This document shows positions 1,524 through 16,050 of a stretch of 38,284 bases of DNA, piece after piece. Under the pieces are notes generated by a model. The model was not told the origin of the DNA, did not search any database, and was given only the letters and a program-made list of their open reading frames with translations. The stretch comes from a virus. The translations under genes and the position numbers were made by a program. Within the stretch, counting starts at the first letter, position 1. Every line of letters begins with the position of its first letter. Location: UHGV virus genome UHGV-0085204; one strand, given 5' to 3'.

Positions 1524-1868
1524 TTAGTCCTTGCGTAGCTTGCTGATTCTTCTGTAAGTCTCTGGTGCTTTGTTTCCGTGTATCTTCATTTCAGACTTCA
1601 ACAGAGCAACGAGAGAATCCCATTCGTTGAGGATGCCTTTGAATGCCGGAACGCGCTTTGCAACCTTGTCGAATGAATCTCTGATTTCTGGAATCTGCTC
1701 AACAAGTGCAACGCATCGCCGGAAGTCTGCTGCGTCATGGGGAGCGCCGAAGTGATGACCATAGATATTCTTTTTCAGTCCACATGCGATTGAGGCAAGA
1801 GTTGCGCTACTGATGCCAACATCGCCAGTCGATTGCCATTTCAAAACCTTCATAGCCAAATCTGACAT
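1524..1868 (-). CDS. Hypothetical early-left protein (start taken at MSDLAMKV ATG)
   Basis: ORF with GGAGA-like RBS; the longer ORF-track start would run into an upstream terminator hairpin. Confidence 0.45.
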   Translation of the reverse strand: MSDLAMKVLKWQSTGDVGISSATLASIACGLKKNIYGHHFGAPHDAADFRRCVALVEQIPEIRDSFDKVAKRVPAFKGILNEWDSLVALLKSEMKIHGNKAPETYRRISKLRKD

Positions 1869-1882
1869 TTCTTGTCTCCAAT

Positions 1883-1905
1883 AAAAAACCGCCATCAGGC
1901 GGCTT
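1883..1905 (-). terminator. Rho-independent terminator-like hairpin on minus strand (GCCGCC..GGCGG stem followed by T7)
   Basis: Plus-strand AAAAAACCGCCATCAGGCGGCTTGG reads on minus strand as stem-loop plus U-run. Confidence 0.5.
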
Positions 1906-1968
1906 GGTGTTCTTTCAGTTCTTCAATTCGAATATTGGTTACATTGTTTTCATATATGAATAAATAAA

Positions 1969-2148
1969 TTAGCTTTTTTCGTTGCCTTCGCGTTCTTTAT
2001 TAATTTTAACAAACTCGTTTTTACCACGCTCTCCAAATGCGTCTTTAGATTCGTTGTATCCGCAATCGCAGCACACATAATCACCAGACCATCCACGCAT
2101 TGTTTTTTCTTTTGCAATATTTCCAGAACCGCATTTTGGACAAGACAT
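1969..2148 (-). CDS. Small zinc-ribbon protein (CxxC...CxxC)
   Basis: MSCPKCGSG...VCCDCGY with two CxxC pairs; GGAGG RBS before the ATG at 2148. Confidence 0.55.
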   Translation of the reverse strand: MSCPKCGSGNIAKEKTMRGWSGDYVCCDCGYNESKDAFGERGKNEFVKINKEREGNEKS

Positions 2149-2244
2149 ATCACTACCTCCAAAGCATGAGTGAGATGACAACGTAACATTGATTGGAGAT
2201 TAACAATAGATTGCTGATGTAAAAGATATGCATAAGCTTCGCTT

Positions 2245-2898
2245 TCAAAGTGGAGGTTCTGGTAGCGGCATCCAGTGTGACGGTTTCCACGACGCACCAG
2301 GAATTATCCACCCATCATTAGCGTCAGGATGACCCGGGATGTAAGTCGCCCATTTCATTCGCCAGTCACCTTTCCTGTCAAACTCCACGGCAACAAGAAC
2401 GGCTGTTTTGGTATCCGGCATTCGCTCACTACAGCTTATCCAACCATCCGGAGTTGCCGGAGAGTTGCCTGGTTCTTTAATGTGCAAGCGAGGCTCACCA
2501 TCTTTTGGCTCAGGCCACTGGCGCTCCATGTTAATCTTCAATTTATCTTCCATAGCAACGGTAATTTCAGCATCGCTGATGCCAGCACGGCGCTGTGCAT
2601 CCCACAACAGAAACTGCATATCAGCCCACTCGCTAAGATCGTCTGGTTCGGCTGCGGCTTCCAGTGCCTCTTTTGAGAGATGTTTCAGCGGACCAATGGG
2701 GCCAACGCAGCCAAATGTGGAGTCAGACCATTTGGCATGCTCGTGGCGAATCTGTTCGCGTTCCAGCGATGCCAGTGCAATTTTTAATGCGGTAAGCATG
2801 TTGTTTTGATCTTCATCGAGTCCGAACGGTATTTCATCCCGTGCTGACTCAATGCTGGTAATCGTGTTCTGTAACCATTCTTTGGTAATAGTGGTCAT
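2245..2898 (-). CDS. Phage protein with DUF551-like C-terminal domain (from memory)
   Basis: 217 aa ORF, ATG start with RBS; C-terminal tryptophan-rich region typical of DUF551 proteins of lambdoid ea regions. Confidence 0.5.
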   Translation of the reverse strand: MTTITKEWLQNTITSIESARDEIPFGLDEDQNNMLTALKIALASLEREQIRHEHAKWSDSTFGCVGPIGPLKHLSKEALEAAAEPDDLSEWADMQFLLWDAQRRAGISDAEITVAMEDKLKINMERQWPEPKDGEPRLHIKEPGNSPATPDGWISCSERMPDTKTAVLVAVEFDRKGDWRMKWATYIPGHPDANDGWIIPGASWKPSHWMPLPEPPL

Positions 2899-2900
2899 AG

Positions 2901-3092
2901 CTATTTCACCTTAATCTCAACATTTCTCAGCTTTAGCTCTACTGGCAGGTCTGACTTTCCTGTTAATGCTAATGCGAGATTTTCAGGAGTAATGAGAGCA
3001 GTTATTGTTTTCCCCCTTGCCAGACGAATAATCATTCGTATCTCGCGATCGTCACATGCTCCCGGTCGAACAATTGATATTTGTCCGATCAT
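2901..3092 (-). CDS. Hypothetical small protein
   Basis: 63 aa from internal ATG (MIGQISIV), abutting the upstream gene stop. Confidence 0.4.
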   Translation of the reverse strand: MIGQISIVRPGACDDREIRMIIRLARGKTITALITPENLALALTGKSDLPVELKLRNVEIKVK

Positions 3093-3093
3093 C

Positions 3094-3789
3094 TCACTCT
3101 CCTTTGATGCGAATGCCTGCGGCGCGTGGCACATTAACTTCCACGATGCGCACTGTTGGTTTGTACATCTCAATCGCTGTCAACCAGTCAGCTCCTGTCA
3201 TGCGCTTTTCCGCATCGCCATTAGTCCACTGAACCGGTACACCAATAGCCTTCATCGCGATTTCTATTTCCCCGGCAATGGCGCTTTTTCCGCAACCAGT
3301 AAAACCAGAAACAACGACAAGAACTTCACCTTTGGCTGGTTTTATTTCCCGTGCTTCCAGTTCTGCAATGCGCTTACTTCCATCCGAGATAACACCTTCG
3401 TAATACTCACGCTGCTCGTTGAGTTTTGATTTTGCTGCTTCAAGCTCAACGCGCAGCTTCCCAACCGTAAGCGCAATATCCTCGTTCTCCTTGTCGCGGC
3501 GTTTGATGTATTGCTGGTTTCTTTCCCGTTCATCCAGTAGTGCCAGCGCAACATTTGGATTAAAAGCAGCAATAAATTCAGCGTTTGCATAAGCCTGAAC
3601 ATCTGTTTCAACCAGGCAGTTAACATGACATTCCGCAATCACACCACCGGGTTCTCCTTTCCATTTTTGGCAAACAAAAACTCCTGTTAAATTGCCGTGC
3701 TGGTTAACAGATGTATGCCCTACGATGTAGCTTCCTTTAGTTGCTTTCTCTGCCTTTTCACGCAGTGCCTGATAATTAATTTCGCTCAC
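3094..3789 (-). CDS. Ea22-like coiled-coil protein
   Basis: 231 aa; central heptad/charged coiled-coil segment; position equivalent to lambda ea22. Confidence 0.55.
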   Translation of the reverse strand: MSEINYQALREKAEKATKGSYIVGHTSVNQHGNLTGVFVCQKWKGEPGGVIAECHVNCLVETDVQAYANAEFIAAFNPNVALALLDERERNQQYIKRRDKENEDIALTVGKLRVELEAAKSKLNEQREYYEGVISDGSKRIAELEAREIKPAKGEVLVVVSGFTGCGKSAIAGEIEIAMKAIGVPVQWTNGDAEKRMTGADWLTAIEMYKPTVRIVEVNVPRAAGIRIKGE

Positions 3790-4007
3790 TTCGAACCTCT
3801 CTGTTTACTGATAAGCTCCAGATCCTCCTGGCAACTTGCACAAGTCCGACAACCCTGAACTGCCAGGCGTCTTCGTTCATCTATCGGATCGCCACACTCA
3901 CAACAATGAGTTGCGGATACAGTCTGGTAGTTCAGGCGACGCATTTTTATTGCTGTATTGCGCTGTAATTCTTCAATTTCTGATGCTGAATCAATGATAT
4001 CTGCCAT
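3786..4007 (-). CDS. TraR/DksA-family C4 zinc-finger protein
   Basis: 73 aa; CCECGDPIDERRRLAVQGCRTCASC matches the C4 zinc finger of the DksA/TraR family. Confidence 0.8.
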   Translation of the reverse strand: MADIIDSASEIEELQRNTAIKMRRLNYQTVSATHCCECGDPIDERRRLAVQGCRTCASCQEDLELISKQRGSK

Positions 4008-4105
4008 CTTTCATTAATCCCTGAATTGTTGGTTAATACGCTTGAGGGTGAATGCGAATAATAAAAAAGGAGCCTGTAGCTCCCTGATGATTTTGCTTTT
4101 CATGT

Positions 4106-4387
4106 TCACCGTTCCTTAAAGACGCCGTTTAACATACCGATTGCCAGACTTAAGTGAGTCGGTGTGAATCCCATCAGCGTTACCGTTTCGCGGTGCTTCT
4201 TCAGTACGCTACGGCAAATGTCATCGACGTTTTTATCCGGAAACTGCTGTCTGGCTTTTTTGATTTCAGAATTAGCCTGACGGGCAATACTGCGAAGGGC
4301 GTTTTCTTGCTGAGGTGTCATTGAACAAGTCCCATGTCGGCAAGCATAAGCACACAGAATATGAAGCCCGCTGCCAGAAAAATGCAT
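4106..4387 (-). CDS. Hypothetical protein (lambda orf61 position); start uncertain, may be the internal ATG at 4321
   Basis: ORF in the exo-distal small-gene cluster; no clear RBS. Confidence 0.35.
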   Translation of the reverse strand: MHFSGSGLHILCAYACRHGTCSMTPQQENALRSIARQANSEIKKARQQFPDKNVDDICRSVLKKHRETVTLMGFTPTHLSLAIGMLNGVFKER

Positions 4388-4397
4388 TCAGTGGTTG

Positions 4398-4589
4398 TCA
4401 TACCTGGTCTCTCTCATCTGCTTCTGCTTTCGCCACCATCATTTCCAGCTTTTGTGAAAGGGATGCGGCTAACGTATGAAATTCTTCGTCTGTTTCTACT
4501 GGTATTGGCACAAACCTGACTCCAATTTGAGCAAGGCTATGTGCAATCTCAATGCTCGTTCTTAACTCAACAGGAGATGCTTTGTGCAT
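4398..4589 (-). CDS. Small protein at the lambda orf63 position
   Basis: 63 aa ORF; position and length match lambda orf63. Confidence 0.5.
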   Translation of the reverse strand: MHKASPVELRTSIEIAHSLAQIGVRFVPIPVETDEEFHTLAASLSQKLEMMVAKAEADERDQV

Positions 4590-4750
4590 ACAGCCCCTCG
4601 TTTATTATTTATCTCCTCAGCCAGCCGCTGGGCTTTCAGCGGATTTCGGATAACAGAAAGGCCGGGAAATACCCAGCCTCGCTTTGTAACGGAGTAGACG
4701 AAAGTGATCGCGCCTACCCGGATATTATCGTGAGGATGCTTCATCGCCAT
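4562..4750 (-). CDS. Small protein at the lambda orf60a position
   Basis: 62 aa, ATG start overlapping exo stop. Confidence 0.45.
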
Positions 4751-5421
4751 TGCTCCCCAAATACAAAACCAATTTCAGCCAGTGCCTCGTCCATTTTTTC
4801 GATGAACTCCGGCACCATCTCGTCAAAACTCGCCATGTACTTTTCATCCCGCTCAACCACGACATAATGCAGGCCTTCACGCTTCATACGCGGGTCATAG
4901 TTGGCAAAGTACCAGGCATCTTTTCGCGTCACCCACATGCTGTACTGCACCTGGGCCATGTAAGCCGATTTTATGGCCTCGAAACCACCGAGCCGGAACT
5001 TCATGAAATCGCGGGAGGTAAACGGGCATTTCAGTTCAAGGCCGTTGCCGTCACTGCATAAACCATCGGGAGAGCAGGCGGTGCGCATACTTTCGTCGCG
5101 ATAGATGATCGGGGATTCAGTAACATTCACGCCGGAAGTGAATTCAAACAGGGTTCTGGCGTCGTTCTCGTACTGTTTTCCCCAGGCCAGCGCCTTGGCA
5201 TTAACTTCCGGAGCCACACCGGTGCAAACCTCGGCAAGCAGGGTGTGGAAGTAGGACATTTTCATATCAGGCCATTTCTTTCCGGATCGGGGTTTTGCTA
5301 TTACGTTATGAACTTCTGAAGCTGTGATGACGCCGAGCCGTAATTTGTGCCACGCATCATCCCCCTGTTCGACAGCTCTCACATCGATCCCGGTACGCTG
5401 CAGGATAATGTCCGGTGTCAT
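4741..5421 (-). CDS. exo: Lambda exonuclease (Red alpha)
   Basis: 226 aa; near-identical to my memory of lambda Exo ([40 protein letters not shown]...). Confidence 0.97.
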
Positions 5422-6203
5422 GCAGCCACCTTCTGCTCAGAGGCTTTCTGTTTCAGGAATCCAAGAGCTTTCACTGCTTCGGCCTGTGTCAGTTCTGACG
5501 ATGCGCGAATGTCGCGGCGAAATATCTGGGAACAGAGCGGCAATAAGTCGTCATCCCATGTTTTGTCCAGGGCAATCAGCAGAGTGTTAATCTCCTGCAT
5601 GGTTTCATCGTTAACCGGAGTAATGTCGCGTTCCGGCTGACATTCTGCGGTGTATGCGGTATTTTCGACAATGCGCTCGGCTTCATCCTTGTCATAGATA
5701 CCAGCAAATCCGAAGGCCAGACGGGCACACTGAATCATGGCTTTATGCCGTAACATCCGTTTGGGATGCGACTGCCACGGGCCGGTGATTTCTCTGCCTT
5801 CGCGGGTTTTGAATGGTTCGCGGCGGCATTCATCCATCCACTCGGTAACGCAGATCGGATGATTACGGTCTTTGCGGTAAATCCGGCATGTACAGGATTC
5901 ATTGTCCTGCTCAAAGTCCATGCCATCAAACTGCTGGTTTTCATTGATGATGCGGGACCAGCCATCAACGCCCACCACCGGAACGATGCCGTTCTGCTTA
6001 TCAGGGAAGGCGTAAATTTCTTTCGTCCACGGATTAAGGCCGTACTGGTTGGCGACGATCAGCAATGCGATGAACTGCGCATCGCTGGCATCACCTTTAA
6101 ATGCCGTCTGGCGAAGAGTGGTGATCAGTTCCTGTGGGTCGACAGAATCCATGCCGACACGTTCAGCTAGCTTCCCAGCCAGCGTTGCGAGTGCTGTACT
6201 CAT
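5418..6203 (-). CDS. bet: Lambda Bet (Red beta) single-strand annealing protein
   Basis: 261 aa; matches lambda Bet length and sequence ([26 protein letters not shown]...). Confidence 0.97.
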
Positions 6204-6208
6204 CCGTT

Positions 6209-6505
6209 TTATACCTCTGAATCAATATCAACCTGGTGGTGAGCAATGGTTTCAACCATGTACCGGATGTGTTCTGCCATGCGCTCCTGAAACTCAACAT
6301 CGTCATCAAACGCACGGGTAATGGCTTTTTTGCTGGCCCCGTGGCGTTGCAAATGATCGATGCATAGCGATTCAAACAGGTGCTGGGGCAGGCCTTTTTC
6401 CATGTCTTCTGCCAGTTCTGCCTCTTTCTCTTCACGGGCGATCTGCTGGTAGTGACGCGCCCAGCTCTGAGCCTCAAGACGATCCTGAATGTAATAAGCG
6501 CTCAT
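6209..6505 (-). CDS. gam: Gam host-nuclease (RecBCD) inhibitor, short form
   Basis: 98 aa; matches C-terminal 98 residues of lambda Gam ([18 protein letters not shown]...[10 protein letters not shown]). Confidence 0.9.
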
Positions 6506-6581
6506 GGCTGAACTCCTGAAAATGGCTGTGAAAATAGCGCCCGCGAAATGCCAGGCTGATTAGGAAAACAGGAAAGGGGGG

Positions 6582-6872
6582 TTAGTGATTCAGGCCGTTA
6601 CCGCGTCCGTCGAGAAAAACTTCCACGAGCAAATCACGGGTATAAGTGCGCTCGATGCCGCGATGCAGATAAAGCCGTCCGCGTAAATTAGCTGATGCAG
6701 TCCAGGTACCATCTTTGTGTTTGACCAGCATTCCTGGCATGACCGCGCCGCGATTAACGGTCTGCGTTCCGTAATGTTGATGAACCATAAAAACTCCTGC
6801 CCGTAAGCTGGGCTGCTGAACATATAGAGACTTCTGCGCGTATTCAGGCGGTGGATGGCCGCCGGTTGTCAT
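6582..6872 (-). CDS. Hypothetical protein at the kil/cIII position (start taken at internal ATG MTTGGH)
   Basis: ORF-track start at 6992 is a TTG; internal ATG at 6872 has a GAGG RBS; position downstream of gam in the leftward operon. Confidence 0.4.
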   Translation of the reverse strand: MTTGGHPPPEYAQKSLYVQQPSLRAGVFMVHQHYGTQTVNRGAVMPGMLVKHKDGTWTASANLRGRLYLHRGIERTYTRDLLVEVFLDGRGNGLNH

Positions 6873-7039
6873 AACTAAGCCGCCTCGTTGAAGCGACTGA
6901 GGTATAAAGTGTTGTGTTGATTTCAGCTGGTCACACCGACGTTCACGCGTCCGCTTCACCCCTCGCACTCCCCGGAGCCTGCTGAAATTCAAGCTGCGGA
7001 TCTAAGCGGTCATCGCAACGGTGAATCAGGTGGTTGCCG

Positions 7040-7130
7040 TATCGTTGTGTTGTTGCGATATGGTGATAATAGCTATTGCTATTGGTGATATCAATACTTA
7101 TTGCTATTGGCTGATGTGTTTTGATATTAA
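7040..7130. promoter_or_regulatory. OL/PL-like operator cluster: repeated TTGCTATTGG motif and AATAGCTATT palindrome
   Basis: Motif copies at about 7072-7085 and 7101-7110; the same motif recurs between the repressor and cro genes. Confidence 0.4.
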
Positions 7131-7235
7131 ATGTTTGATAGCAAAAAGAATTAATTTTGTGACTTGCATCGCATAGCGATAACTGAAGCAGTAGTGTGGT
7201 GGTTTTTTGAGCGGTGTGTGATGAGGGGAGGGGAC

Positions 7236-7264
7236 AAAAGAAAACCCGGCACGGTGGCCGGGTT
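7236..7264 (-). terminator. Rho-independent terminator after the cargo operon (CCCGGC..GCCGGG stem, T-run on minus strand)
   Basis: Plus AAAACCCGGCACGGTGGCCGGGTT; minus-strand reading gives stem plus TTTTCTTTT. Confidence 0.55.
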
Positions 7265-7288
7265 ATTAATTAAATTAGTCAGTTTTTT

Positions 7289-8095
7289 CTACTGTAACAT
7301 AGAGGCAGCATTCAGCATCTTTTCGTAATATGAACGCATGTCTTCTTTGCTATATGCGTTGATAAGATTATCAGCGTGTTTTTCCAGTAGATTTAGCTGC
7401 TGTTTTGCTGACTTTTCTTGTGCTGTCGTTTCAGCGGCAAAAATTACAAATGAATCAATATTTGAATTGTATAATTCGTAGGCTTTAGTAATTGTTAAAA
7501 CACTTATCGCAGCTTCACCCATTTGTTTTTTTATATTTTCAGAACGAAAATCTAATGTTTCTGTAAGATGGTATTTGCCATTTTTTAACAAAAAATCTGC
7601 AACTAACCCTTCTTCATTACTAATTGGATAATTAGCTACGATTTTATGTTGGGAAAGATCTTCAAAATACTTACTGAAAATTCCATGTTGTATAAAGGTG
7701 GATTTTAATTCAGAAAAAACCTTTTTTTTCAACTGCTTATGTGGTTGTTTTTGTGGGTTTACTAACCGATTCATTAGATCAGTAACTTTAGCTTCGTAAT
7801 CTTCGTTGGCTTGAAGAGTGAACATGCCAAATGACGATAACGATAATGCTCCCTTAAAAAGACAAGGAAGAAGTTCAGCATTGTTGATTTTTTGTGACAA
7901 ATCAAAAAGCGAGGTTGAAAGATCCTCTAAGTAATCTAAGGTAAGATCTTTGTCAATCGCTTTAAGTTTTGAAACTGAATTGAGCATACGTACGTCTATG
8001 TCAGAGTCATGGTAAACGATCAAACCAACGTTAATCGTTTCACCTTTCTCTAAGTTCGGTGTAACTCTGATTAAGCTGTATTTGAAAGTTTTCAA
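7289..8095 (-). CDS. DUF3037-like protein (assignment from memory); second gene of cargo operon; TTG start overlapping upstream stop
   Basis: 268 aa; N-terminal YSLIRVTPNLEKGETINVGLIV resembles the conserved DUF3037 N-terminus; GGAGA RBS 7 nt before the TTG; AT-rich by eye. Confidence 0.55.
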   Translation of the reverse strand: MKTFKYSLIRVTPNLEKGETINVGLIVYHDSDIDVRMLNSVSKLKAIDKDLTLDYLEDLSTSLFDLSQKINNAELLPCLFKGALSLSSFGMFTLQANEDYEAKVTDLMNRLVNPQKQPHKQLKKKVFSELKSTFIQHGIFSKYFEDLSQHKIVANYPISNEEGLVADFLLKNGKYHLTETLDFRSENIKKQMGEAAISVLTITKAYELYNSNIDSFVIFAAETTAQEKSAKQQLNLLEKHADNLINAYSKEDMRSYYEKMLNAASMLQ

Positions 8096-8940
8096 GATGT
8101 TATCTCCAGTCTTATGGCATTTAGCCTATCGATTCGCTCCTCGCTATCCCACCACTTCAAAAAATACTCCTTATGCATTGGTGGCATCCATGCTTCAGGC
8201 ATAGAGTTAAGTATATCAGATATAGTCTCAACTCCAATTTTTTCAATTTTGTCAAGGACAGATAATGCGCACTTTCTCAGATCATCAGTGTCGCCAATGA
8301 ATTGTTTAGCAATCGTCCAGTTTGTTGTTGTACTGGAGTCTGTTGGTAGTATATGAGGGGTATTTCGTGGCCAGCCTATAACAAAAGAGTTTAGACTAAA
8401 ATCGAATGTTTTAACTATAACATTGCCTCGGGTGTTTTCCATGTATAAGTAGTTGTTGAGGTGTCTGTCAATGTTATATACAAACTGATCAAATGCATAA
8501 ATTGCCCAGAGTTGCTTCTTTAAGGATTCAGAAGCATTTGAGAGCAAATTTATCCATTGAGGACTATTGAGACCAGATTTCCAGGCTGAAAACTCTATGC
8601 GAGAGCCAAAAACATACTCCCCATTAGCAATACACTTGAGAATTTTGCACACAGGTGTAGCGATGCCGCATTTTTCAGCTAAATTTGTGCAAAACCATTC
8701 CGCTGCCGGTACTTGAGTTGGGTTTTGTACAGGAAAAGGTGGGGTGGAACGCATGCTTTTAACTGCATATTCCATTTCATCAGTGGCAATAGCGAAACCA
8801 GAAAGGTGTGCAGTGCCTAAGCTTGAAGGTGTATATTCATGAAATTCTAATTCAAACAAACTTCCTTGCTCTGGTTTCACTTCATCAGTGTTTGGCTCTT
8901 GTTCTTTCGTCATCAACTTTTTTCCCCAAATCGAAGACAT
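8092..8940 (-). CDS. HipA-C-like / protein-kinase-like fold protein (short, lacks HipA N-terminal domains)
   Basis: 282 aa; catalytic-loop-like NIDRHLNNYLY (DxHxxN) followed about 20 residues later by TFDFS (DFG-like); AGAGG RBS; 46 bp downstream of repressor stop. Confidence 0.55.
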   Translation of the reverse strand: MSSIWGKKLMTKEQEPNTDEVKPEQGSLFELEFHEYTPSSLGTAHLSGFAIATDEMEYAVKSMRSTPPFPVQNPTQVPAAEWFCTNLAEKCGIATPVCKILKCIANGEYVFGSRIEFSAWKSGLNSPQWINLLSNASESLKKQLWAIYAFDQFVYNIDRHLNNYLYMENTRGNVIVKTFDFSLNSFVIGWPRNTPHILPTDSSTTTNWTIAKQFIGDTDDLRKCALSVLDKIEKIGVETISDILNSMPEAWMPPMHKEYFLKWWDSEERIDRLNAIRLEITS

Positions 8941-8986
8941 GCGGACCTCTTAAATTTGAACAACATCATAATGATTAGCTAATCCG

Positions 8987-9679
8987 CTACCCATGCTTCC
9001 TATACGTCTGCGGCATGCTCCCAATAACCTTACCGAAGATGAACACCCGGTTCATCTCGTCTTTCTCGATCGGGTCCCACGGTGAGTAGCTCTTGTTATC
9101 AGAGATAACCAGCAGCTTATCCTTCATCATTTGCAGACGCTTTACATGGGCTGTGTCGTCGTACAGAAACGCATAGATACCATCACCGTCGAAAGATTTA
9201 ACCGTGATATCAACGAACAGCAGATCACCTGGTTCGATCGTTCCTGACATGCTGTCACCACGCACGTTAATGATGCGGATATTTTCCGCCTTCCTGCCAT
9301 CGAACATGTGACGAGCATCGTCAAACGAGTACTCAACCGAGCGTAGAACTTCTACAAACTCACGGTTGATTACACCCGGCCCGGCACTGACTTCTATATC
9401 AAGAACGTCAATTTTGAAGTATTTGGAATGGCTGACAGCAGGCTTCCCTGATTGTTGACCGTCATTTCTCATCGGGCCTATGCCTGATGAGAGCCATTCT
9501 GTTCGAACACCCAATGCATTAGCTATTTCAACAATTTTTGTTGAGCCGCGCGCGTTGCCGCTTGTCAGTCTCCAGATTGTGGGTTGAGCTACGCCAGACG
9601 CCTTTGCAAGAGCGCCTTGAGACATTCCAGATTGTTCCATCGCTAGGTTTAAGCGATCAGCAAGAGTTTCTTTTTTCAT
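8987..9679 (-). CDS. CI/LexA-like prophage repressor (N-terminal HTH, C-terminal S24 peptidase)
   Basis: 230 aa from ATG at 9679; HTH segment MSQGALAKASGVAQPTIWRL; S24 signature GDSMSGT and downstream lysine (VKRL); ORF-track start at 9715 is a TTG. Confidence 0.9.
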   Translation of the reverse strand: MKKETLADRLNLAMEQSGMSQGALAKASGVAQPTIWRLTSGNARGSTKIVEIANALGVRTEWLSSGIGPMRNDGQQSGKPAVSHSKYFKIDVLDIEVSAGPGVINREFVEVLRSVEYSFDDARHMFDGRKAENIRIINVRGDSMSGTIEPGDLLFVDITVKSFDGDGIYAFLYDDTAHVKRLQMMKDKLLVISDNKSYSPWDPIEKDEMNRVFIFGKVIGSMPQTYRKHG

Positions 9680-9715
9680 AAGTTTTAATTTATACGCTTG
9701 CGTATTGATGGTCAA

Positions 9716-9789
9716 AACACGTTTTGCTATTGCTTGGGTTAATACGCATTGCTATTATTCATTCATTGCAATACCAATAGGAATTGATA
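9716..9789. promoter_or_regulatory. OR-like divergent promoter/operator region between repressor and cro
   Basis: Repeats TTGCTATTGC (9724-9733), CATTGCTATT (9748-9757) and palindromic ATTGCAAT..CCAATAGG (9764-9781). Confidence 0.5.
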
Positions 9790-10017
9790 ATGACAAATCA
9801 AACCATTCAACTCGCAATCAGTATTACAGGTAGTCAAAAACGACTGGCAGATCTATGCGGTGTAGCCCAACCCACAGTTTGGCGTTGGCTACACGGTGGC
9901 GGAATTGATGCCCGCTATGTAATGAAAATTGTCTCAGCCACTGGTGGAAAGATTAAACCAGCAGATATTCGTCCCGACCTCGCACCATTGTTTAACGCGA
10001 GTAATTCTGCCGCCTAA
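9790..10017 (+). CDS. Cro-like HTH regulator
   Basis: 75 aa from ATG at 9790; HTH LADLCGVAQPTVWRWL; divergent from the repressor. Confidence 0.7.
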   Translation: MTNQTIQLAISITGSQKRLADLCGVAQPTVWRWLHGGGIDARYVMKIVSATGGKIKPADIRPDLAPLFNASNSAA

Positions 10018-10041
10018 ACTGCGGCGTTAACTGATAAGGCA

Positions 10042-10587
10042 ATGACTATGCAACCACTTACATACCAACAGACTAGCGGATTTAGCCCGACTGCGGTGAT
10101 AAATCGTTCTCAAACAAAACAGGCGCCAGGCCACGAAAAAATCCGTGATGCCGTTCGCGCCTGGTCGGCTGCAGATAATCAGGATGTTGTTGCCGCACTC
10201 ATTGTGAATGAGTATCGGGAGCAGGGCGGCGGCACCATCGATTTCCCTGATGATGTCAGTCGTGCACGCCAGAAGCTGTTCCGCTTCCTCGATAACAAAT
10301 TCGATTCTGAAAAATACCGAAATAACGTGCGTGAACTGACCCCGGCAATTCTGGCGGTACTACCGCTGGAATATCGCGGCCACCTGGTTGAGCAGGATAG
10401 CTACATGGCTCGGCTGGCTGAAATGGAAAAGGAACTCAGTGAGGCAAAACAGGCTGTCATTCTCAACGCACCACGCCACCAGAAACTGAAGGAGATGAGT
10501 GAAGGCATTGTGTCGATGTTTCGTGTGGACCCGGATCTGGCTGGTCCACTGATGGCGATGGTCACCACCATGCTGGGGGCAATATGA
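10042..10587 (+). CDS. CII-position regulatory protein (YdaT-like, from memory)
   Basis: 181 aa between cro and O; no lambda CII similarity, assignment is positional. Confidence 0.4.
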   Translation: MTMQPLTYQQTSGFSPTAVINRSQTKQAPGHEKIRDAVRAWSAADNQDVVAALIVNEYREQGGGTIDFPDDVSRARQKLFRFLDNKFDSEKYRNNVRELTPAILAVLPLEYRGHLVEQDSYMARLAEMEKELSEAKQAVILNAPRHQKLKEMSEGIVSMFRVDPDLAGPLMAMVTTMLGAI

Positions 10588-10673
10588 CAGGTTCGGAAAT
10601 GGCGAAAGCCGGTCTGCGCGAACAGAACCGACTTTCAGGTGCAAATCGTAACACACTCATTGCGGGAGGAATT

Positions 10674-11603
10674 ATGGCAAACACTGCTGAGATATTCAAT
10701 TTTCCAGTGCCGGATGCGGCACAAAAGGAGCCGCGCGTGGCAGATCTCGATGATGGTTATACGCGCATTGCAAATGAGTTGCTGGAAGCTGTGATGCTGG
10801 CCGGATTAACACAGCACCAGCTTCTGGTCTTCCTGGCTGTCATGCGCAAAACATATGGCTTTAATAAAAAACTGGATTGGGTGAGCAACGAGCAACTTTC
10901 CGAGTTGACCGGGATATTGCCGCACAAGTGTTCTGCTGCAAAAAGTGTTCTGGTAAAGCGTGGGATTTTTATTCAGAGCGGGCGGAATATCGGCATTAAT
11001 AATGTGGTCAGTGAATGGTCAACATTACCCGAATCAGGTAAGAAAAATAAAGTTTACCTGAAAGAGGTAAATTTACCTGAATCAGGTAAGAAAAGTTTAC
11101 CCAAATCAGGTAAAGGCACTTACCCGAATCAGGTAAACACAAAAGACAAACTAACAAAAGACAATATAAAACCTTTTTCGTCCGAGAATTCTGGCGAATC
11201 CTCTGACCAGCCAGAAAACGACTTTCCTGTGGAGAAACGGGATGCTGCAATTCAGAGCGGCAGCAAGTGGGGGACAGCAGAAGACCTGACCGCCGCAGAG
11301 TGGATGTTTGACATGGTGAAGACCATCGCGCCCTCAGCCAGAAAACCGAATTTTGCAGGGTGGGCTAACGATATCCGCCTGATGCGTGAACGTGACGGAC
11401 GTAACCACCGCGACATGTGCGTGCTGTTCCGCTGGGCATGCCAGGACAACTTCTGGTCAGGTAACGTGCTGAGTCCGGCCAAACTCCGCGACAAGTGGAC
11501 CCAACTCGAAATCAACCGTAACAAGCAACAGGCTGGCGTGACAGCCGGAAAATCAAAACTCGACCTGACAAACACTGACTGGATTTACGGGGTGGATTTA
11601 TGA
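10674..11603 (+). CDS. O: Replication initiator O (lambda O-like)
   Basis: ATG at 10674 with GGAGG RBS; N-terminus ADLDDGYTRIANELLEA close to lambda O; iterons inside the gene. Confidence 0.9.
   Translation: MANTAEIFNFPVPDAAQKEPRVADLDDGYTRIANELLEAVMLAGLTQHQLLVFLAVMRKTYGFNKKLDWVSNEQLSELTGILPHKCSAAKSVLVKRGIFIQSGRNIGINNVVSEWSTLPESGKKNKVYLKEVNLPESGKKSLPKSGKGTYPNQVNTKDKLTKDNIKPFSSENSGESSDQPENDFPVEKRDAAIQSGSKWGTAEDLTAAEWMFDMVKTIAPSARKPNFAGWANDIRLMRERDGRNHRDMCVLFRWACQDNFWSGNVLSPAKLRDKWTQLEINRNKQQAGVTAGKSKLDLTNTDWIYGVDL
11023..11140 (+). repeat. Replication origin iterons (four copies of about 18 bp CCNRAATCAGGTAAR) inside the O gene
   Basis: Direct repeats read at 11026-11042, 11083-11099, 11101-11116, 11121-11137, followed by A-rich segment ACAAAAGACAAACTAACAAAAGACAATATAAAACC. 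Confidence 0.75.
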
Positions 11604-12301
11604 AAAACATCGCCGCACAGATGGTTAACTTTGACCGTGAGCAGATGCGCCGGATCGCCAACAACATGCCGGAACAGTACGACGAAAAGCCGCAGGTACA
11701 GCAGGTAGCGCAGATCATCAACGGTGTGTTCAGCCAGTTACTGGCAACTTTCCCGGCGAGCCTGGCTAACCGTGACCAGAATGAACTGAACGAAATCCGC
11801 CGCCAGTGGGTTCTGGCTTTCCGGGAAAACGGGATCACCACAATGGAACAGGTTAACGCAGGAATGCGCGTAGCCCGTCGGCAGAATCGACCATTCCTGC
11901 CATCACCCGGGCAGTTTGTCGCCTGGTGCCGGGAAGAAGCATCCGTTAACGCCGGGCTGCCAAACGCCAGCGAGCTGGTTGATATGGTTTACGAGTATTG
12001 CCGGAAGCGTGGCCTTTATCCGGATGCAGAGTCTTATCCATGGAAATCAAACGCGCATTACTGGTTGGTTACCAACCTGTATCAGAACATGCGGGCCAAT
12101 GCGCTGACTGATGCGGAATTACGGCGCAAGGCTGCCGATGAACTGACTTGTATGACCGCGCGAATTAATCGTGGTGAGGCGATACCTGAACCAGTAAAAC
12201 AACTTCCTGTCATGGGCGGTAGACCACTTAACCGGGCTCAGGCTCTGGCGAAGATCGCAGAAATCAAAGCTAAGTTCGGACTGAAAGGAGCCAGTGTATG
12301 A
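11600..12301 (+). CDS. P: Replication protein P (DnaB loader)
   Basis: 233 aa, near-identical to my memory of lambda P (MKNIAAQMVNFDREQMRRIANNMPEQYDEKPQ...). Confidence 0.97.
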   Translation: MKNIAAQMVNFDREQMRRIANNMPEQYDEKPQVQQVAQIINGVFSQLLATFPASLANRDQNELNEIRRQWVLAFRENGITTMEQVNAGMRVARRQNRPFLPSPGQFVAWCREEASVNAGLPNASELVDMVYEYCRKRGLYPDAESYPWKSNAHYWLVTNLYQNMRANALTDAELRRKAADELTCMTARINRGEAIPEPVKQLPVMGGRPLNRAQALAKIAEIKAKFGLKGASV

Positions 12302-12591
12302 CAGGCAAAGAGGCAATTCTTCACTACCTGAAAACGCACCGGACTTTCTGCGCGCCGGATGTAGCTGCGGCAACAGGCGTGACTGTAACCAGCATCAATC
12401 AGGCAGCAGCCAAAATGGCACGGGCAGGAATCCTGGTCGTTGATCGCAAGGTCTGGCGAACGGTGTATTACCGGTTCGCTACCAGGGAGGAGCGGGAAGG
12501 AAAGGTGAGCACGAACCTGATTTTCAAGGAGTGTCGCCAGAGTGCCGTGATGAAACGGGTATTGATGTTTTGGGGGAGGGTAGGGGTATAA
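12298..12591 (+). CDS. ren: Ren exclusion protein
   Basis: 97 aa, matches lambda Ren (MTGKEAI.HYL.TH..FCAPDVAA.TG.TVTSINQAAAKMARAG). Confidence 0.9.
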   Translation: MTGKEAILHYLKTHRTFCAPDVAAATGVTVTSINQAAAKMARAGILVVDRKVWRTVYYRFATREEREGKVSTNLIFKECRQSAVMKRVLMFWGRVGV

Positions 12592-12879
12592 GCGAAACGT
12601 TATGAGTGTGTGGGTATTCGTGCCATTGCGATGTGGTAGAGAGTGCTGAGGGCGTCATGGTTGTGTTGCGAAAACTACGTTGCACTTGAGCAGGATCTTG
12701 CAGAATTTGAGCGCGAGTTCCGTGTTGCTGATGCGACTATACCCTCGATGTAGAGGAACTTAATTAGCTGATTGTAATTCAATATGCCTACTAAGACCGG
12801 TTGGGTATGAACTAGTAAAGGCTGCAAAATCCTATAGAGTGTTAACGCAACCAAAAACGTTAAGCACGGAGAAAAAAAT

Positions 12880-13632
12880 ATGGATCCTAAATTACTGTAT
12901 GCCACGTTTAAACGAAATGACGCACCAGCTTGGCGCTGCCCGAACTGTATGAATGAAACACTGGAGATTGTCGCTGATAGTTTTGTAGAAACTGATTCAA
13001 GCGCAACAACTCAGTTTAGAGATGAAGTATGGTTTGATGAGGAAATGTCGGGAGGAGTATTCAGTTGCGTGCTGCGCTGTACCCGCCAAGCCTGCCAGGA
13101 GAAGGTTGCTTTGTCTGGGCAGGTTGTTGCTGTAGAATGCTTCAATGACGAAATGACGGAGCGTTGGTATGTTTCTGGTTTCCGTCCTAAGTATTTCTAT
13201 CCACCACTTCCTCTATTCCTGTTTCCTGAAAAGTGCCCTGAAGATATAGCTGATCTCTTGGCGGAAGTATCAGCTCTGATCCCCTCGCACCCAGCTTCAG
13301 CGGTGAACACCATGAGAACCATACTGGAGATGATGCTTGATAGTCTTGATGTACCAAGAGAGAAAACAGTTAAAGGCAAGATAATACGTCTTTCTACGCA
13401 TGAAAGAATCACAAATTATTCAGATAAACTGGGACCAAATAAAGATGCATTCATGGCGTTAAAGTGGTTGGGGAATCACGGCAGTCATGGAGGGATTAAA
13501 GTCACAAGGTCCTCTATTAATGATGCCTGCATTCTCATTGGTCATTTGATTGACTTCTTATTCTTAGAAAGCCCGGATGTAACTATTCATATTGAACGGA
13601 TAAACAACGTGTATGCACCCAAAAAGGAGTAA
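12880..13632 (+). CDS. Zinc-ribbon plus DUF4145/HEPN-like domain protein (cargo)
   Basis: 250 aa; N-terminal CPNC...C..C; C-terminal KWLGNHGSHGG fits my memory of the DUF4145 R..GN...HG motif with K for R; AT-rich by eye. Confidence 0.5.
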   Translation: MDPKLLYATFKRNDAPAWRCPNCMNETLEIVADSFVETDSSATTQFRDEVWFDEEMSGGVFSCVLRCTRQACQEKVALSGQVVAVECFNDEMTERWYVSGFRPKYFYPPLPLFLFPEKCPEDIADLLAEVSALIPSHPASAVNTMRTILEMMLDSLDVPREKTVKGKIIRLSTHERITNYSDKLGPNKDAFMALKWLGNHGSHGGIKVTRSSINDACILIGHLIDFLFLESPDVTIHIERINNVYAPKKE

Positions 13633-13643
13633 AACGTAACGCC

Positions 13644-13892
13644 ATGTCGAAGCGGAATATTGCCGCTAAAACACAAGAAGAGCGCGAGAAGGTTAACGTT
13701 GACCTTGCTGTCTCCTGAGTTACCTACAAAGAGCACCTTAATATACCGGTTATTGCCGAAGCGGTGATGCGTGAGCAGCCTGAGCATTTGCGGGACTATT
13801 TTTTGGAGCGGCCACGACATTACCGCGAGCAGAGCATCGCGCTGCCCAAGGCATCCGCTCCTCGACATCTTAAGCAGGAAGGTGAAAAATGA
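13644..13892 (+). pseudogene. Small ORF interrupted by an in-frame TGA (13716-13718); downstream part ends in ATGA overlap with the next gene
   Basis: ATG 13644 ...AVS TGA VTYKEH...MREQPEHL...QEGEK stop at 13890-13892; same frame throughout. Confidence 0.3.
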
Positions 13893-14371
13893 TAAGTGCA
13901 GAAGGACTGCAGCGGTTACTTAATTTATCGGAGCCTCCATCTGATGAACTGATTGATGTTTATCTTCAATTCTGCATGATTTTTCCTAGGGTCGAGCAAA
14001 GTTTTTTTGGTGGCTTTGCTAAGGGGGAAGACAGTTTAAATTATGCGCGAACGTTACTTGACGCCGGGATAAAGGTGCCCAACGAACTTTTTCACGATTT
14101 TAAGCAGAGATACATTTTGAATGGGGATGCGCAGGAAAGACTTGACGCCCTCTGTGTCGGTCGAGAGAGAGATAGGCGGGGAATAGTTAATGGACTTCAA
14201 AATGACGCAGCAACAGATCTAAACACCATGTCTACAGTATTAAAGATAGTTATAAGGATAAGAAATAACCTTTTCCACGGAAATAAAGACGCTTATCTTT
14301 TTGTTGATTCTCAAGAGCAAGCGCAACTATTGAGGTGGTGCGTGAGATTTCTCCAAGGATTATTAAATTAA
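13889..14371 (+). CDS. HEPN-like hypothetical protein (cargo)
   Basis: 160 aa; RBS GGAAGGTG; C-terminal IRIRNNLFHGN contains an R-x4-H (HEPN-type) motif; AT-rich by eye. Confidence 0.45.
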   Translation: MISAEGLQRLLNLSEPPSDELIDVYLQFCMIFPRVEQSFFGGFAKGEDSLNYARTLLDAGIKVPNELFHDFKQRYILNGDAQERLDALCVGRERDRRGIVNGLQNDAATDLNTMSTVLKIVIRIRNNLFHGNKDAYLFVDSQEQAQLLRWCVRFLQGLLN

Positions 14372-14560
14372 TCTACCTTTGATTTTCCATAATCAACCAG
14401 CAATAATAATGTCACCGGAGCCTGAACAACATCGGTGACTTCTGCGCTAAACGGGGACGTTTATGCGCACATACAATCCAAACTCTCTTCTCCCTTCACA
14501 GATGCAGAGATGCACCTGCGATTTTTTGCATCCAGCGTTTGACCTCTGCGGAGGTGAAGC

Positions 14561-15016
14561 GTGAACCTCCCACAAGACGGCATCAAATTGCATCGTGGTA
14601 ACTTCACCGCTATCGGCCAGCAGATCCAGCCTTATCTGGAGGAAGGCAAATGCTTTCGCATGGTGCTTAAACCGTGGCGTGAGAAACGCAGTCTTTCCCA
14701 GAATGCACTCAGCCACATGTGGTACAGCGAAATCAGTGAATACCTCATCAGCAGGGGTAAAACGTTCGCCACTCCAGCTTGGGTAAAAGATGCTCTCAAA
14801 CACACATATCTCGGTTATGAAACCAAAGACCTGGTTGATGTCGTAACCGGTGAGATCACCACTATCCAGTCGTTACGCCATACCTCCGATCTTGATACCG
14901 GAGAGATGTATATCTTCCTGTGTAAGGTTGAAGCCTGGGCGGTGAATATTGGCTGCCACCTGACTATTCCGCAGAGCTGCGAGTTCCAGCTGCTCCGCGA
15001 CAAGCAGGAGGCGTAA
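14561..15016 (+). CDS. NinB-family protein (DLP12 YbcN-like)
   Basis: 151 aa; GTG start with GGAGG RBS; [16 protein letters not shown] motif; position at start of nin region. Confidence 0.7.
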
Positions 15017-15186
15017 TGGCTACACCGCTTATTCGTGTCATGAACGGACACATCTACAGAGTATCAAATCGTCGTAAGCGTAAGCCTGAGCTGAAGCCAT
15101 CCGAAATACCAACACTGCTCGGATATACCGCTAGCCTGGTTGATAAAAAATGGTTGCGACTGGCAGCAAGGAGGAATCATGGCTGA
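15016..15186 (+). CDS. ninE: NinE-like small protein (below ORF-track size cutoff)
   Basis: 56 aa; ATG overlapping upstream TAA (TAATG); C-terminus YTASLVDKKWLRLAARR resembles NinE. Confidence 0.65.
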   Translation: MATPLIRVMNGHIYRVSNRRKRKPELKPSEIPTLLGYTASLVDKKWLRLAARRNHG

Positions 15187-15469
15187 TTTGAGAAAAGCAG
15201 CGCGTGGTCGGGAATGCCAGGTAAGAATCCCAGGCGTATGTAATGGCAACCCTGAAACGTCTGTACTGGCACATATCCGGCTGACTGGATTGTGCGGCAC
15301 CGGTACGAAACCGCCAGACCTGATTGCCACCATTGCATGTTCTGCCTGCCACGACGAAATCGACCGCCGCACGCATTTTGTTGACGCTGGATATGCAAAA
15401 GAATGCGCGCTGGAAGGTATGGCGAGAACGCAGGTTATCTGGCTGAAAGAGGGGGTAATTAAGGCGTGA
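15179..15469 (+). CDS. DUF1364-family protein (DLP12 YbcO-like), cysteine-rich
   Basis: 96 aa from ATG at 15179; cysteine motifs CQVRIPGVC and CSACHDEID. Confidence 0.65.
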
Positions 15470-15828
15470 ATACTTACCACATCACACTACCCTGGCCGCC
15501 GAGCAATAACCGCTACTACCGCCATAATCGAGGGCGCACGCACATCAGCGCAGAAGGGCAGGCATACCGCGATAACGTCGCCCGAATCATTAAAGGCTCA
15601 ATGCTGGATATCGGTCTGGCTATGCCTGTGAAAATCCGCATTGAGTGCCACATGCCGGATCGCCGTCGCCGTGACCTGGATAATCTGCAAAAGGCCGCTT
15701 TTGACGCACTCACCAAAGCGGGTTTCTGGCTGGATGATGCTCAGGTCGTTGATTACCGCGTTGTGAAGATGCCCGTTACCAAAGGTGGAAAGCTGGAGCT
15801 GACCATCACTGAACTGGGAGATGAATGA
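15466..15828 (+). CDS. rusA: Holliday junction resolvase RusA
   Basis: 120 aa; matches RusA of DLP12 ([25 protein letters not shown]). Confidence 0.95.
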
Positions 15829-15965: not shown

Positions 15966-16050
15966 AGTCAGAGATAACAATCAACTAATACTGTTTTGTT
16001 GATTTTTGCTTGTAATTGGCGTTCTGGTCTGAGTTTTGTGGAGTAAGTTG

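What the first reader, a model, noticed from the sequence alone, without database searches (positions are those of the whole stretch)
7289..8940. Two-gene kinase module (HipA-like kinase + DUF3037-like partner) in the rexAB-equivalent slot downstream of the repressor
Seen in sequence: two co-oriented minus-strand genes sit between the cI-like repressor (stop 8987) and the OL-like operator cluster (7040-7130), which is where lambda carries rexA-rexB. The first gene starts 46 bp after the repressor stop with an AGAGG RBS and no intervening terminator. The second starts at a TTG that overlaps the first gene's TGA (TTGA coupling) with its own GGAGA RBS. A hairpin plus T-run terminator follows at 7236-7264. 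Both genes look AT-richer than the flanking lambda-like DNA. The 282-aa protein has NIDRHLNNYLY (DxHxxN) and a downstream FDF, matching the catalytic and Mg-binding loops of HipA/PI3K-type kinases, but it lacks the N-terminal HipA subdomains. The 268-aa partner has an N-terminus YSLIRVTPNLEKGETINVGLIV that I recall as the DUF3037 signature. Inference: a lysogen-expressed kinase-based superinfection-exclusion or abortive-infection module, possibly toxin-antitoxin-like. I do not recognise this pairing at a rex locus as a characterised defence system.
Basis: partly seen in the sequence, partly recalled or inferred. Interest (0 to 1): 0.85.

Follow-up and report, generated by a model that had tools for sequence, protein, structure and literature searches.

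The report
Prophage HipA-like kinase defence pair
Two genes just downstream of a lambda-like prophage's repressor encode a HipA-type kinase and a DUF3037 partner; they are a distant relative of the recently validated HipAD (DS-6) anti-phage system, which sits in the same prophage slot, so this is a real but no longer novel kind of defence module.

Summary
Two translationally coupled minus-strand genes sit between the cI-like repressor stop (8987) and a terminator (7243-7264), upstream of the OL/PL region. They are a kinase (8092-8940, 282 aa) and a partner (7289-8095, 268 aa). GC is 36% against about 50% in the flanks.

The kinase passes Pfam HipA_2, folds like CtkA, HipA and HipT, and keeps K61, D158, H160, N163 and D180. 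The partner passes Pfam DUF3037.

The pairing is already known. It is PADLOC candidate PDC-M66, and it was validated as DS-6, renamed HipAD (DefensePredictor, Science 2026; Brenes & Laub 2025). A retron study showed that the kinase is needed for defence and that losing the DUF3037 gene is toxic.

Our kinase matches DS-6A by profile comparison (96.5%). The partner's N-terminal domain matches DS-6B's (96%). The partner's C-terminal domain does not; it looks like a restriction-endonuclease fold.

DS-6-family pairs occupy the same repressor-downstream slot in E. coli and Klebsiella prophages. Sibling phages with 96-98% identical flanks carry a different two-gene cassette (annotated GevT/GevA) between identical junctions (7262 | 8987).

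Verdict: a divergent new member of a known kind of system, in a known cargo hotspot. It is probably co-transcribed with cI and acts as a kinase toxin/antitoxin-like abortive-infection module. Interest is modest.

The parts
8092..8940 (-). HipA-like (HipA_2/CtkA-type) Ser/Thr kinase, 282 aa. It has a disordered N-terminus (aa 1-26) and lacks the HipA N-terminal subdomains.
   Evidence: ORF. Pfam HipA_2 28.2 bits against cutoff 27. PHROG 3162, E = 1e-66. Invariant K61, E81, D158, H160, N163, D180. AF2 pLDDT 84.7, pTM 0.82. Foldseek PDB hits CtkA, HipA and HipT at E = 1e-7 to 1e-6. hhalign to DS-6A: 96.5%, 172 columns.
7289..8095 (-). Partner protein, 268 aa. It has an N-terminal DUF3037 domain (aa 1 to about 112) and a C-terminal restriction-endonuclease-like alpha/beta domain (aa about 126-264). 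It is the presumed antitoxin or sensor.
8092..8107 (-). Translational-coupling junction: GGAGA (8107..8103), then a TTG start (8095..8093) overlapping the TGA stop (8094..8092).
   Evidence: Sequence. The same 4-bp overlap and gene order occur in DS-6 and in all homologue loci.
8941..8986 (-). 46-nt spacer between the cI stop and the kinase start. It carries AGAGG (8950..8946) and has no terminator.
   Evidence: Sequence. No terminator-like site. Fold z-score 0.01.
7234..7264 (-). Intrinsic terminator ending the cI-kinase-partner transcription unit. It is backbone sequence shared with sibling phages.
   Evidence: Homology to phages 4A7 and PhiR47_2 resumes at 7262.
7263..8986 (.). The exchanged cargo cassette (1,724 bp, 36% GC). 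It is absent from otherwise 96-98% identical phages, which carry a different two-gene cassette here.
   Evidence: blastn junctions against NC_049946 and PV340567. Annotations. GC.
8987..9679 (-). cI-like repressor (HTH_3 + Peptidase_S24), the first gene of the presumed operon. The ATG at 9679 is the likely start.
   Evidence: Pfam. RefSeq annotates 693 nt. 97.6% nucleotide identity to the phage 4A7 cI region.
9687..9715 (-). PRM-like promoter, TTGACC-17-TAAATT. Its -10 hexamer ends 7 nt before the cI ATG, so the mRNA is probably leaderless as in lambda.
   Evidence: and the sequence.
7066..7110 (-). OL/PL-like region: promoter TTGATA-17-TATTAT and two exact CCAATAGCAATA operator-like 12-mers.

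Best explanation
This is a prophage cargo cassette encoding a divergent member of the HipA-like kinase + DUF3037 two-gene anti-phage system (PDC-M66 / DS-6 / HipAD).

Shown here:
- The two genes are translationally coupled.
- They lie directly behind the cI-like repressor with no terminator in between, and are closed by a terminator before OL/PL. This is the position of rexAB in lambda.
- The kinase has an intact active site.
- The pair travels as a unit between prophage slots and chromosomal sites.

Inferred:
- In a lysogen the pair is read through from the repressor promoter, so it is made whenever the prophage is repressed.
- The DUF3037 partner binds and holds the kinase inactive, in the manner of an antitoxin.
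- Infection by another phage perturbs the partner or the complex. The freed kinase then phosphorylates an essential host target, by analogy with HipA acting on GltX and HipT acting on TrpS (established knowledge of those families). Growth of the infected cell and phage production then stop (abortive infection).
- The trigger, the kinase substrate and the role of the partner's nuclease-like C-terminal domain are unknown.
For: Anatomy.

Kinase:
- Passes Pfam HipA_2.
- Invariant catalytic residues.
- Confident AF2 model whose best matches are CtkA, HipA and HipT.
- hhalign to the validated DS-6A gives 96.5%, E = 7.7e-10, over 172 columns. D158 aligns with DS-6A D139, whose D139A mutant loses defence.

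Partner:
- Pfam DUF3037 and PDC-M66B.
- N-terminal domain is 96-98% homologous to the DS-6B family by profile comparison.

Published experiments on homologous pairs:
- DS-6 gives about 10^4-10^5-fold protection against phage Bas1.
- In the Retron-Sda1 cassette, deleting the kinase abolishes defence and deleting the DUF3037 gene is toxic.
- AlphaFold3 predicts a DS-6A/DS-6B complex.

Context:
- The pair, its order and its overlap are conserved in Pectobacterium (same repressor-downstream slot), Vibrio (another prophage slot), Gallaecimonas (chromosomal) and an IS-flanked locus.
- DS-6-family pairs occupy the same slot.
- The cassette is a precise swap against a GevT/GevA-annotated pair in sibling phages.
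- A 541-aa natural fusion of kinase + DUF3037 + C-terminal domain exists.
Against: - No experiment exists on this pair.
- Pairwise identity to DS-6 is almost nil: 16/51 and 8/22 identities in short local alignments.
- PDC-M66A matches only at E = 1.6e-3, so PADLOC would probably not call the system.
- The partner's C-terminal domain shows no profile similarity to that of DS-6B (0.65-2%), so the regulatory or sensing half may work differently.
- Read-through expression from the repressor promoter is inferred from the absence of a terminator, not measured.
- Abortive infection is only hypothesised, even for DS-6.
Confidence: 0.7

Rival explanations
1. The pair is a plain toxin-antitoxin addiction module. 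It stabilises the prophage through post-segregational killing and has no role against other phages.
For: The layout is toxin-like, with coupled genes. Loss of the DUF3037 gene is toxic in a homologous cassette. The pair also occurs as a mobile cassette outside prophages.
Against: Homologous pairs do protect against phage, and that protection needs kinase activity. The slot is used by other exclusion or defence cargo, such as rexAB in lambda and the GevT/GevA-annotated pair in sibling phages. An integrated prophage has little need for segregational stabilisation.
Confidence: 0.1
2. The partner is the effector. Its C-terminal restriction-endonuclease-like domain is an active nuclease, or a DNA sensor. 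The kinase regulates it or acts as a co-effector rather than being the toxin.
Against: There is no canonical PD-(D/E)xK motif. Foldseek finds nothing at E <= 1e-3, and the best hits include non-catalytic ERCC1 and FAAP24 domains. In homologous systems it is loss of the partner that is toxic and loss of the kinase that abolishes defence.
Confidence: 0.1
3. The kinase serves the phage's own biology. It might tune the lysis-lysogeny switch or host physiology, as the Pf-prophage KKP kinase module does. Alternatively it might use the upstream XRE-type repressor as a HipB-like third component.
For: The kinase lies immediately downstream of an XRE-HTH/S24 repressor in E. coli, Klebsiella and Pectobacterium prophages. 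A prophage kinase module that controls lysogeny is known (PMC11341870, listed).
Against: DS-6 works as a two-gene clone without any repressor. Family members occur with no repressor nearby. Sibling phages with the same cI lack the kinase altogether.
Confidence: 0.07

Closest known systems
DS-6 / HipAD (E. coli ECOR prophage system: DS-6A WP_000389051.1 + DS-6B WP_000210934.1; DefensePredictor, Science 2026, PMC13092281; Brenes & Laub, Cell Host Microbe 2025)
   Same: - A short HipA_2-type kinase is followed by a DUF3037 protein of about 270 aa, with a 4-bp overlap.
- The kinases are homologous over about 170 columns, with the catalytic Asp aligned.
- The DUF3037 domains are homologous.
- Family members sit in the same repressor-downstream slot of lambdoid prophages.
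   Different: - The two are barely alignable pairwise.
- Our kinase is 282 aa with a disordered N-terminal extension, against 227-249 aa.
- The partner's C-terminal half has no detectable profile similarity to that of DS-6B.
- The two partner families do not overlap in a 5.8-billion-protein search.
- Our pair is untested.
PADLOC candidate system PDC-M66 and the HipA/DUF3037 cassette next to Retron-Sda1 (PMC12548924)
   Same: It has the same two-domain pairing. Our partner hits PDC-M66B at E = 2.6e-8 over aa 1-190. In the Sda1 cassette the kinase is required for defence and loss of the DUF3037 gene is toxic.
   Different: Our kinase hits PDC-M66A only at E = 1.6e-3 and hits PDC-M03A better, at 7.6e-7. 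DS-6 scores 6e-15 and 3.8e-16. There is no retron next to our pair.
HipBA / HipBST type II toxin-antitoxin kinases (HipA, HipT) and H. pylori CtkA
   Same: It shares the kinase fold and the catalytic D-x-H-x-x-N plus Mg-binding Asp. It is likely toxic unless neutralised by a partner protein.
   Different: It has no HipA N-terminal subdomains. HipA_C is below the Pfam cutoff. There is no HipB or HipS. The partner is encoded downstream and is unrelated to HipB. There is no sequence-level hit to any solved structure.
Lambda rexA-rexB, and by recollection the 933W stk kinase, in the cI-to-PL slot
   Same: It occupies the same position and has the same operon logic: repressor, then cargo, then terminator, then OL/PL. 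It is expected to be expressed in the lysogen and to exclude other phages.
   Different: The proteins are unrelated; there were no Rex family hits in Pfam. 933W Stk is a eukaryote-like kinase without a DUF3037 partner. That comparison rests on my own knowledge and was not tested here.

Membership tests
HipAD / DS-6 | Kinase homologous to DS-6A with the catalytic Asp (DS-6A D139) conserved | tested here: met
   hhalign of A1 against DS-6A gives 96.5%, E = 7.7e-10, 172 columns. D158 aligns with D139. D158 is invariant in 24 homologues.
HipAD / DS-6 | Partner with an N-terminal DUF3037 domain | tested here: met
   Pfam PF11236 scores 38.5 bits against a cutoff of 22.6. hhalign of A2 against the DS-6B family A3 gives 96.1% over 134 columns. 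A larger profile gives 97.7%.
HipAD / DS-6 | Partner C-terminal domain of the DS-6B type (HHpred DUF1829-like in the paper) | tested here: not met
   hhalign of the C-terminal halves gives 0.65% and 2% with 121 sequences. There is no DUF1829 hit in either family. A shared fold is not excluded, because DS-6B could not be folded here.
HipAD / DS-6 | Gene order kinase then partner, with overlapping stop and start | tested here: met
   The TTGA overlap is at 8095..8092. DS-6 genes are at 2415..3164 and 1591..2418.
HipAD / DS-6 | Kinase-dependent protection against phage | not testable with these tools
   This needs plating assays with the wild-type pair and with K61A and D158A mutants.
PADLOC PDC-M66 | Both proteins match the PDC-M66A and PDC-M66B HMMs | tested here: inconclusive
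   M66B matches at E = 2.6e-8 (31.7 bits, aa 1-190). M66A matches only at E = 1.6e-3 (15.7 bits), weaker than PDC-M03A at 26.9 bits. DS-6 scores 53 and 57 bits. PADLOC itself and its thresholds could not be run.
HipBA type II TA (canonical HipA) | HipA_C domain above the Pfam threshold plus the N-terminal HipA subdomains | tested here: not met
   HipA_C scores 24.4 bits, below the cutoff of 30.5, and there is no N-terminal HipA domain hit. TM-score normalised to HipA length is 0.30-0.36, against 0.53 for CtkA.
HipBA type II TA (canonical HipA) | HipB (or HipS) antitoxin partner | tested here: not met
   The partner is a DUF3037 protein with no HTH hit.
Lambda RexAB | Sequence homology to RexA and RexB | tested here: not met
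   Pfam, NCBIfam, PHROG and PADLOC scans returned no Rex family. Only the genomic position is shared.
PD-(D/E)xK nuclease superfamily (partner C-terminal domain) | Restriction-endonuclease-like alpha-beta-beta-beta-alpha-beta core | tested here: inconclusive
PD-(D/E)xK nuclease superfamily (partner C-terminal domain) | Canonical D...(D/E)xK catalytic motif | tested here: not met
   The conserved residues are D/E167, K/R171, N172 and D182. No (D/E)xK lies on the third strand.

The most novel reading that the evidence does not exclude
This lineage may be more than a sequence-diverged HipAD. Its partner carries its own restriction-endonuclease-like C-terminal domain, found in 337 representative clusters and always in this architecture, with near-invariant acidic, His and Asn residues. 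That domain could be a functional nuclease or a nucleic-acid sensor. If so, the system would couple a HipA-type kinase to DNA/RNA sensing or cleavage, a mechanism not described for DS-6/HipAD.
Probability: 0.15. Interest if true: 0.6.

Novelty: new member of a known kind. Interest (0 to 1): 0.3.

Why it matters
This pair extends the HipA-like kinase + DUF3037 defence family to a second, very divergent lineage. That lineage is common in E. coli: the exact partner protein was seen on at least 999 contigs, and the full module is in 24 of 5,426 complete genomes.

It also gives a clean example of cassette exchange at the repressor-downstream slot of lambdoid prophages. Three kinds of cargo are now seen in such a slot: this pair, and a GevT/GevA-annotated pair between the same junctions in 96-98% identical sibling phages; and DS-6-type pairs in the equivalent slot of other E. 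coli and Klebsiella prophages.

Comparing two lineages that share the kinase and the DUF3037 domain but differ in the partner's C-terminal half could help locate the sensing and neutralising functions. It is not a new kind of system.

Tried and rejected
- **Phage records.** Nucleotide and protein searches of 50,697 phage records found no copy of the module. Only the 70-bp left flank matched.
- **Brenes & Laub 2025.** The paper is not in the held library, by DOI or by PubMed id. Its content is cited only through PMC13092281.
- **'HipAD' and 'GevT/GevA' text searches.** Both returned unrelated papers.
- **Accession look-up.** Our RefSeq accessions were not found in the DefensePredictor supplements. 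Those files are truncated, so this is uninformative.
- **PDB sequence searches.** Profiles of the kinase, the partner and the C-terminal domain found nothing significant.
- **Rfam and ARAGORN.** Neither found anything in the window.
- **Internal promoters.** Promoter-like sites within the pair were not more frequent than in shuffled sequence: 5 found against 8.5 expected. I therefore claim no internal promoter.
- **Repressor as a HipB-like third component.** Considered and rejected. DS-6 works as a two-gene clone, and some family members have no repressor nearby.
- **Antisense ORFs.** Plus-strand ORFs inside the region (for example 8114-8356 and 8808-8978) were not examined for homologues or coding support and are not claimed as genes.
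Full report
**Observation**

The region contains two co-oriented minus-strand ORFs. The first is 8092..8940 (282 aa, ATG start). The second is 7289..8095 (268 aa, TTG start).

The upstream gene (stop at 8989..8987) is an HTH_3 + Peptidase_S24 repressor. The 46-nt spacer carries AGAGG five bases before the ATG. It has no terminator-like site, and its fold is no more stable than shuffled sequence (z = 0.01).

The second gene's TTG overlaps the first gene's TGA (cTTGAa), and GGAGA lies seven bases upstream. A G+C-rich hairpin at 7264..7243 followed by a T-run comes 25 nt after the second stop codon. It folds at -14.2 kcal/mol, z = -2.2.

Further left are a PL-like promoter (TTGATA-17-TATTAT, 7094..7066) and two exact CCAATAGCAATA 12-mers (7074-7085 and 7099-7110). 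Related copies lie in the OR region.

GC is 0.398 for the first gene and 0.335 for the second. It is 0.48 for the repressor and about 0.50 for the flanks.

Three minor corrections apply:
- HipA_C is below its Pfam cutoff. HipA_2 is the family that passes.
- RefSeq starts the kinase at M10.
- The repressor probably starts at ATG 9679. That ATG lies 7 nt after the -10 of a PRM-like promoter, so the message is probably leaderless as in lambda.

**What the proteins are**

The 282-aa protein matches Pfam HipA_2 (28.2 bits, cutoff 27) and PHROG 3162 (E = 1e-66, function unknown).

A search of 5.8 billion proteins found 49 clusters, mostly in gamma-proteobacteria such as Enterobacterales and Vibrio. 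In an alignment of 24 of them, K61, E81, D158, H160, N163 and D180 are invariant. These are the ATP-binding lysine, the catalytic loop and the Mg-binding aspartate of HipA/PI3/4K-type kinases.

The AlphaFold2 model is confident (pLDDT 84.7, pTM 0.82; residues 1-26 are disordered). Its best PDB matches are H. pylori CtkA (E = 1.5e-7, TM 0.55), HipA, Legionella and E. coli HipT, and PI4K-II. No solved structure is detectable by sequence.

The 268-aa protein matches Pfam DUF3037 (38.5 bits, cutoff 22.6, aa 6-64), PADLOC PDC-M66B (E = 2.6e-8, aa 1-190) and PHROG 5137. All 25 aligned relatives match DUF3037.

The aligned length and the alpha-beta-beta-beta-alpha-beta topology point to the C-terminal domain, but the tool reports no aligned ranges, so this assignment is an inference. 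Foldseek gives only weak support: NucS at E = 3e-3 and Cdn1 over 118 columns, with nothing at E <= 1e-3.

A profile of this domain finds 337 representative clusters among 1.84 billion proteins. Nearly all are 265-300 aa with the domain at about 128-272, so the domain is essentially confined to this architecture.

Across 121 representatives, D/E167, K/R171, N172 and D182 are 95-99% conserved. H150 and H176 are about 80% conserved. There is no canonical (D/E)xK motif. I read the domain as having a restriction-endonuclease-like fold with an unresolved activity.

**It is a known kind of system**

A full-text search for DUF3037 led to two papers.

The retron paper (PMC12548924) reports that DUF3037 proteins are strongly associated with HipA-like kinases and that PADLOC calls the pair PDC-M66. 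In the cassette next to Retron-Sda1, deleting the kinase abolishes defence, and deleting the DUF3037 gene is toxic.

DefensePredictor (PMC13092281) validated DS-6, a HipA-family kinase (DS-6A) plus a DUF3037 protein (DS-6B) from an ECOR strain. It notes that the same system was found independently and named HipAD by Brenes & Laub (2025), and proposes a HipAB-like toxin-antitoxin acting by abortive infection.

[quoted passage not shown] I could not read Brenes & Laub itself.

**How close is our pair to DS-6?**

Pairwise BLASTP is almost blank. It finds 16/51 identities around the catalytic loop and 8/22 at the DUF3037 N-terminus.

Profiles tell a different story:
- Our kinase family against DS-6A gives 96.5% probability, E = 7.7e-10, over 172 columns, with D158 aligned to D139.
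- Our partner family against a 25-sequence DS-6B family alignment gives 96.1% over aa 2-139.
- The C-terminal halves show no similarity. The probability is 0.65%, or 2% with a 121-sequence profile.

As a calibration, DS-6A and DS-6B hit PDC-M66A and PDC-M66B at 6e-15 and 3.8e-16. Ours hit at 1.6e-3 and 2.6e-8. The two partner families did not overlap in the database searches.

Our pair is therefore a separate, deep lineage of the same architecture. Whether its partner's C-terminal domain shares the DS-6B fold is undetermined.

**The genomic slot**

Compared with phage 4A7 (NC_049946) and PhiR47_2 (PV340567), the window is 96.2% and 93.6% identical over 6001-7262. From 8987 rightward it is 97.6% identical to 4A7 as far as 10600, and 90.2% identical to PhiR47_2 as far as 9543.

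The 1,724 bp at 7263-8986 have no counterpart in those phages. They carry instead a 354-aa protein plus an ASCH protein, annotated GevT toxin and GevA antitoxin in PV340567. The junctions fall exactly at the cI stop codon and inside the shared terminator. This is a clean cassette exchange.

The left flank occurs in 970 of 5,426 complete E. coli genomes. The full module occurs in 24 of them, always on the chromosome.

In strain A11 the prophage carrying the module sits at tRNA-Arg/intD next to fimZ.

More distant relatives of our pair occur in four contexts, always as kinase then partner with an overlap:
- directly behind an S24 repressor in Pectobacterium prophages;
- elsewhere in a Vibrio prophage;
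- in the chromosome of Gallaecimonas;
- next to IS1595 in a metagenome contig.

DS-6-family pairs also occupy the repressor-downstream slot. In Klebsiella the order is repressor, HipA_2, DUF3037, KilR, Gam, RecT. In E. coli it is cI, HipA_2, DUF3037, N, cIII, Kil. So the pairing at a rex-like locus is how the published system itself is found.

**Mechanism**

Shown:
- the operon-like anatomy;
- an intact kinase active site;
- obligate pairing of the two genes;
- mobility of the pair as a cassette;
- a 541-aa natural fusion of kinase, DUF3037 and the C-terminal domain, although a frameshift artefact is possible.

Inferred from homologous systems and from established HipA/HipT biology:
- The pair is read through from the repressor promoter in lysogens.
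- The partner neutralises the kinase.
- Infection releases the kinase, which phosphorylates an essential host protein and aborts the infection.

The trigger and the substrate are unknown.

Rival explanations, with my confidence in each:
- a pure addiction module (0.10);
- a partner that is itself a nuclease or sensor effector (0.10);
- a kinase that serves the phage's own switch (0.07).

**Verdict**

It is now indirectly supported by experiments on relatives. The system type and its location were already published in 2025-2026.

I class the pair as a new, highly divergent member of a known kind. The one open point of interest is the partner's distinct, nuclease-like C-terminal domain. Interest: 0.3.

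Noticed in passing
window 9679-9715 (minus strand): A PRM-like promoter (TTGACC-17-TAAATT, 9715..9687) ends 7 nt before the ATG at 9679. The repressor mRNA is therefore probably leaderless, as for lambda cI. The 242-aa TTG-started ORF from the ORF list is probably too long; RefSeq annotates 693 nt.
   Followed up: partly
window 6789-7065: Only about 277 nt, with no plausible gene, separate the PL-like promoter from the kil homologue (6582-6788). No N-type antiterminator gene is present. Phage 4A7 has the same layout. No Rfam family matches, so how early-left antitermination works here is open.
   Followed up: partly
L013 (NC_049946) 3565-4981; L002 (PV340567) 4070-5498: Sibling lambdoid phages with the same repressor carry a 354-aa protein plus an ASCH-domain protein in the same slot, between identical junctions. 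PV340567 annotates them as GevT toxin and GevA antitoxin. I found no paper describing this pair in the held library.
   Followed up: partly
proteins P0333 (541 aa) and P0022 (326 aa): These are single ORFs that fuse the kinase and the DUF3037 partner. P0333 has HipA_2 at aa 31-134, DUF3037 at 253-322 and the C-terminal domain at 380-519. They are either natural fusions that support a physical complex, or frameshifts at the overlapping stop/start.
   Followed up: partly
window 1-38284: The window is a mosaic lambdoid genome. Only 3823-16410 and 19514-20507 match the E. coli A11 prophage that carries the same module. No complete E. coli genome covers 80% or more of the first 25 kb. There is no tRNA gene. 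The exact kinase protein is deposited as DAF10974.1, 'MAG TPA: CtkA [Caudoviricetes sp.]'.
   Followed up: partly
window 10042-10587 (plus strand): The gene in the cII position is a YdaT-domain protein (annotated 'toxin YdaT domain-containing protein' in RefSeq, and 'CII-like transcriptional activator' in phage 4A7).
   Followed up: no
window about 12880-13632 (by homology to L001 11681-12433): In the related A11 prophage a DUF4145-domain protein lies in the nin region, next to a local GC dip (0.42-0.46 at 12550-12999). It may be another cargo gene. I did not examine it.
   Followed up: no
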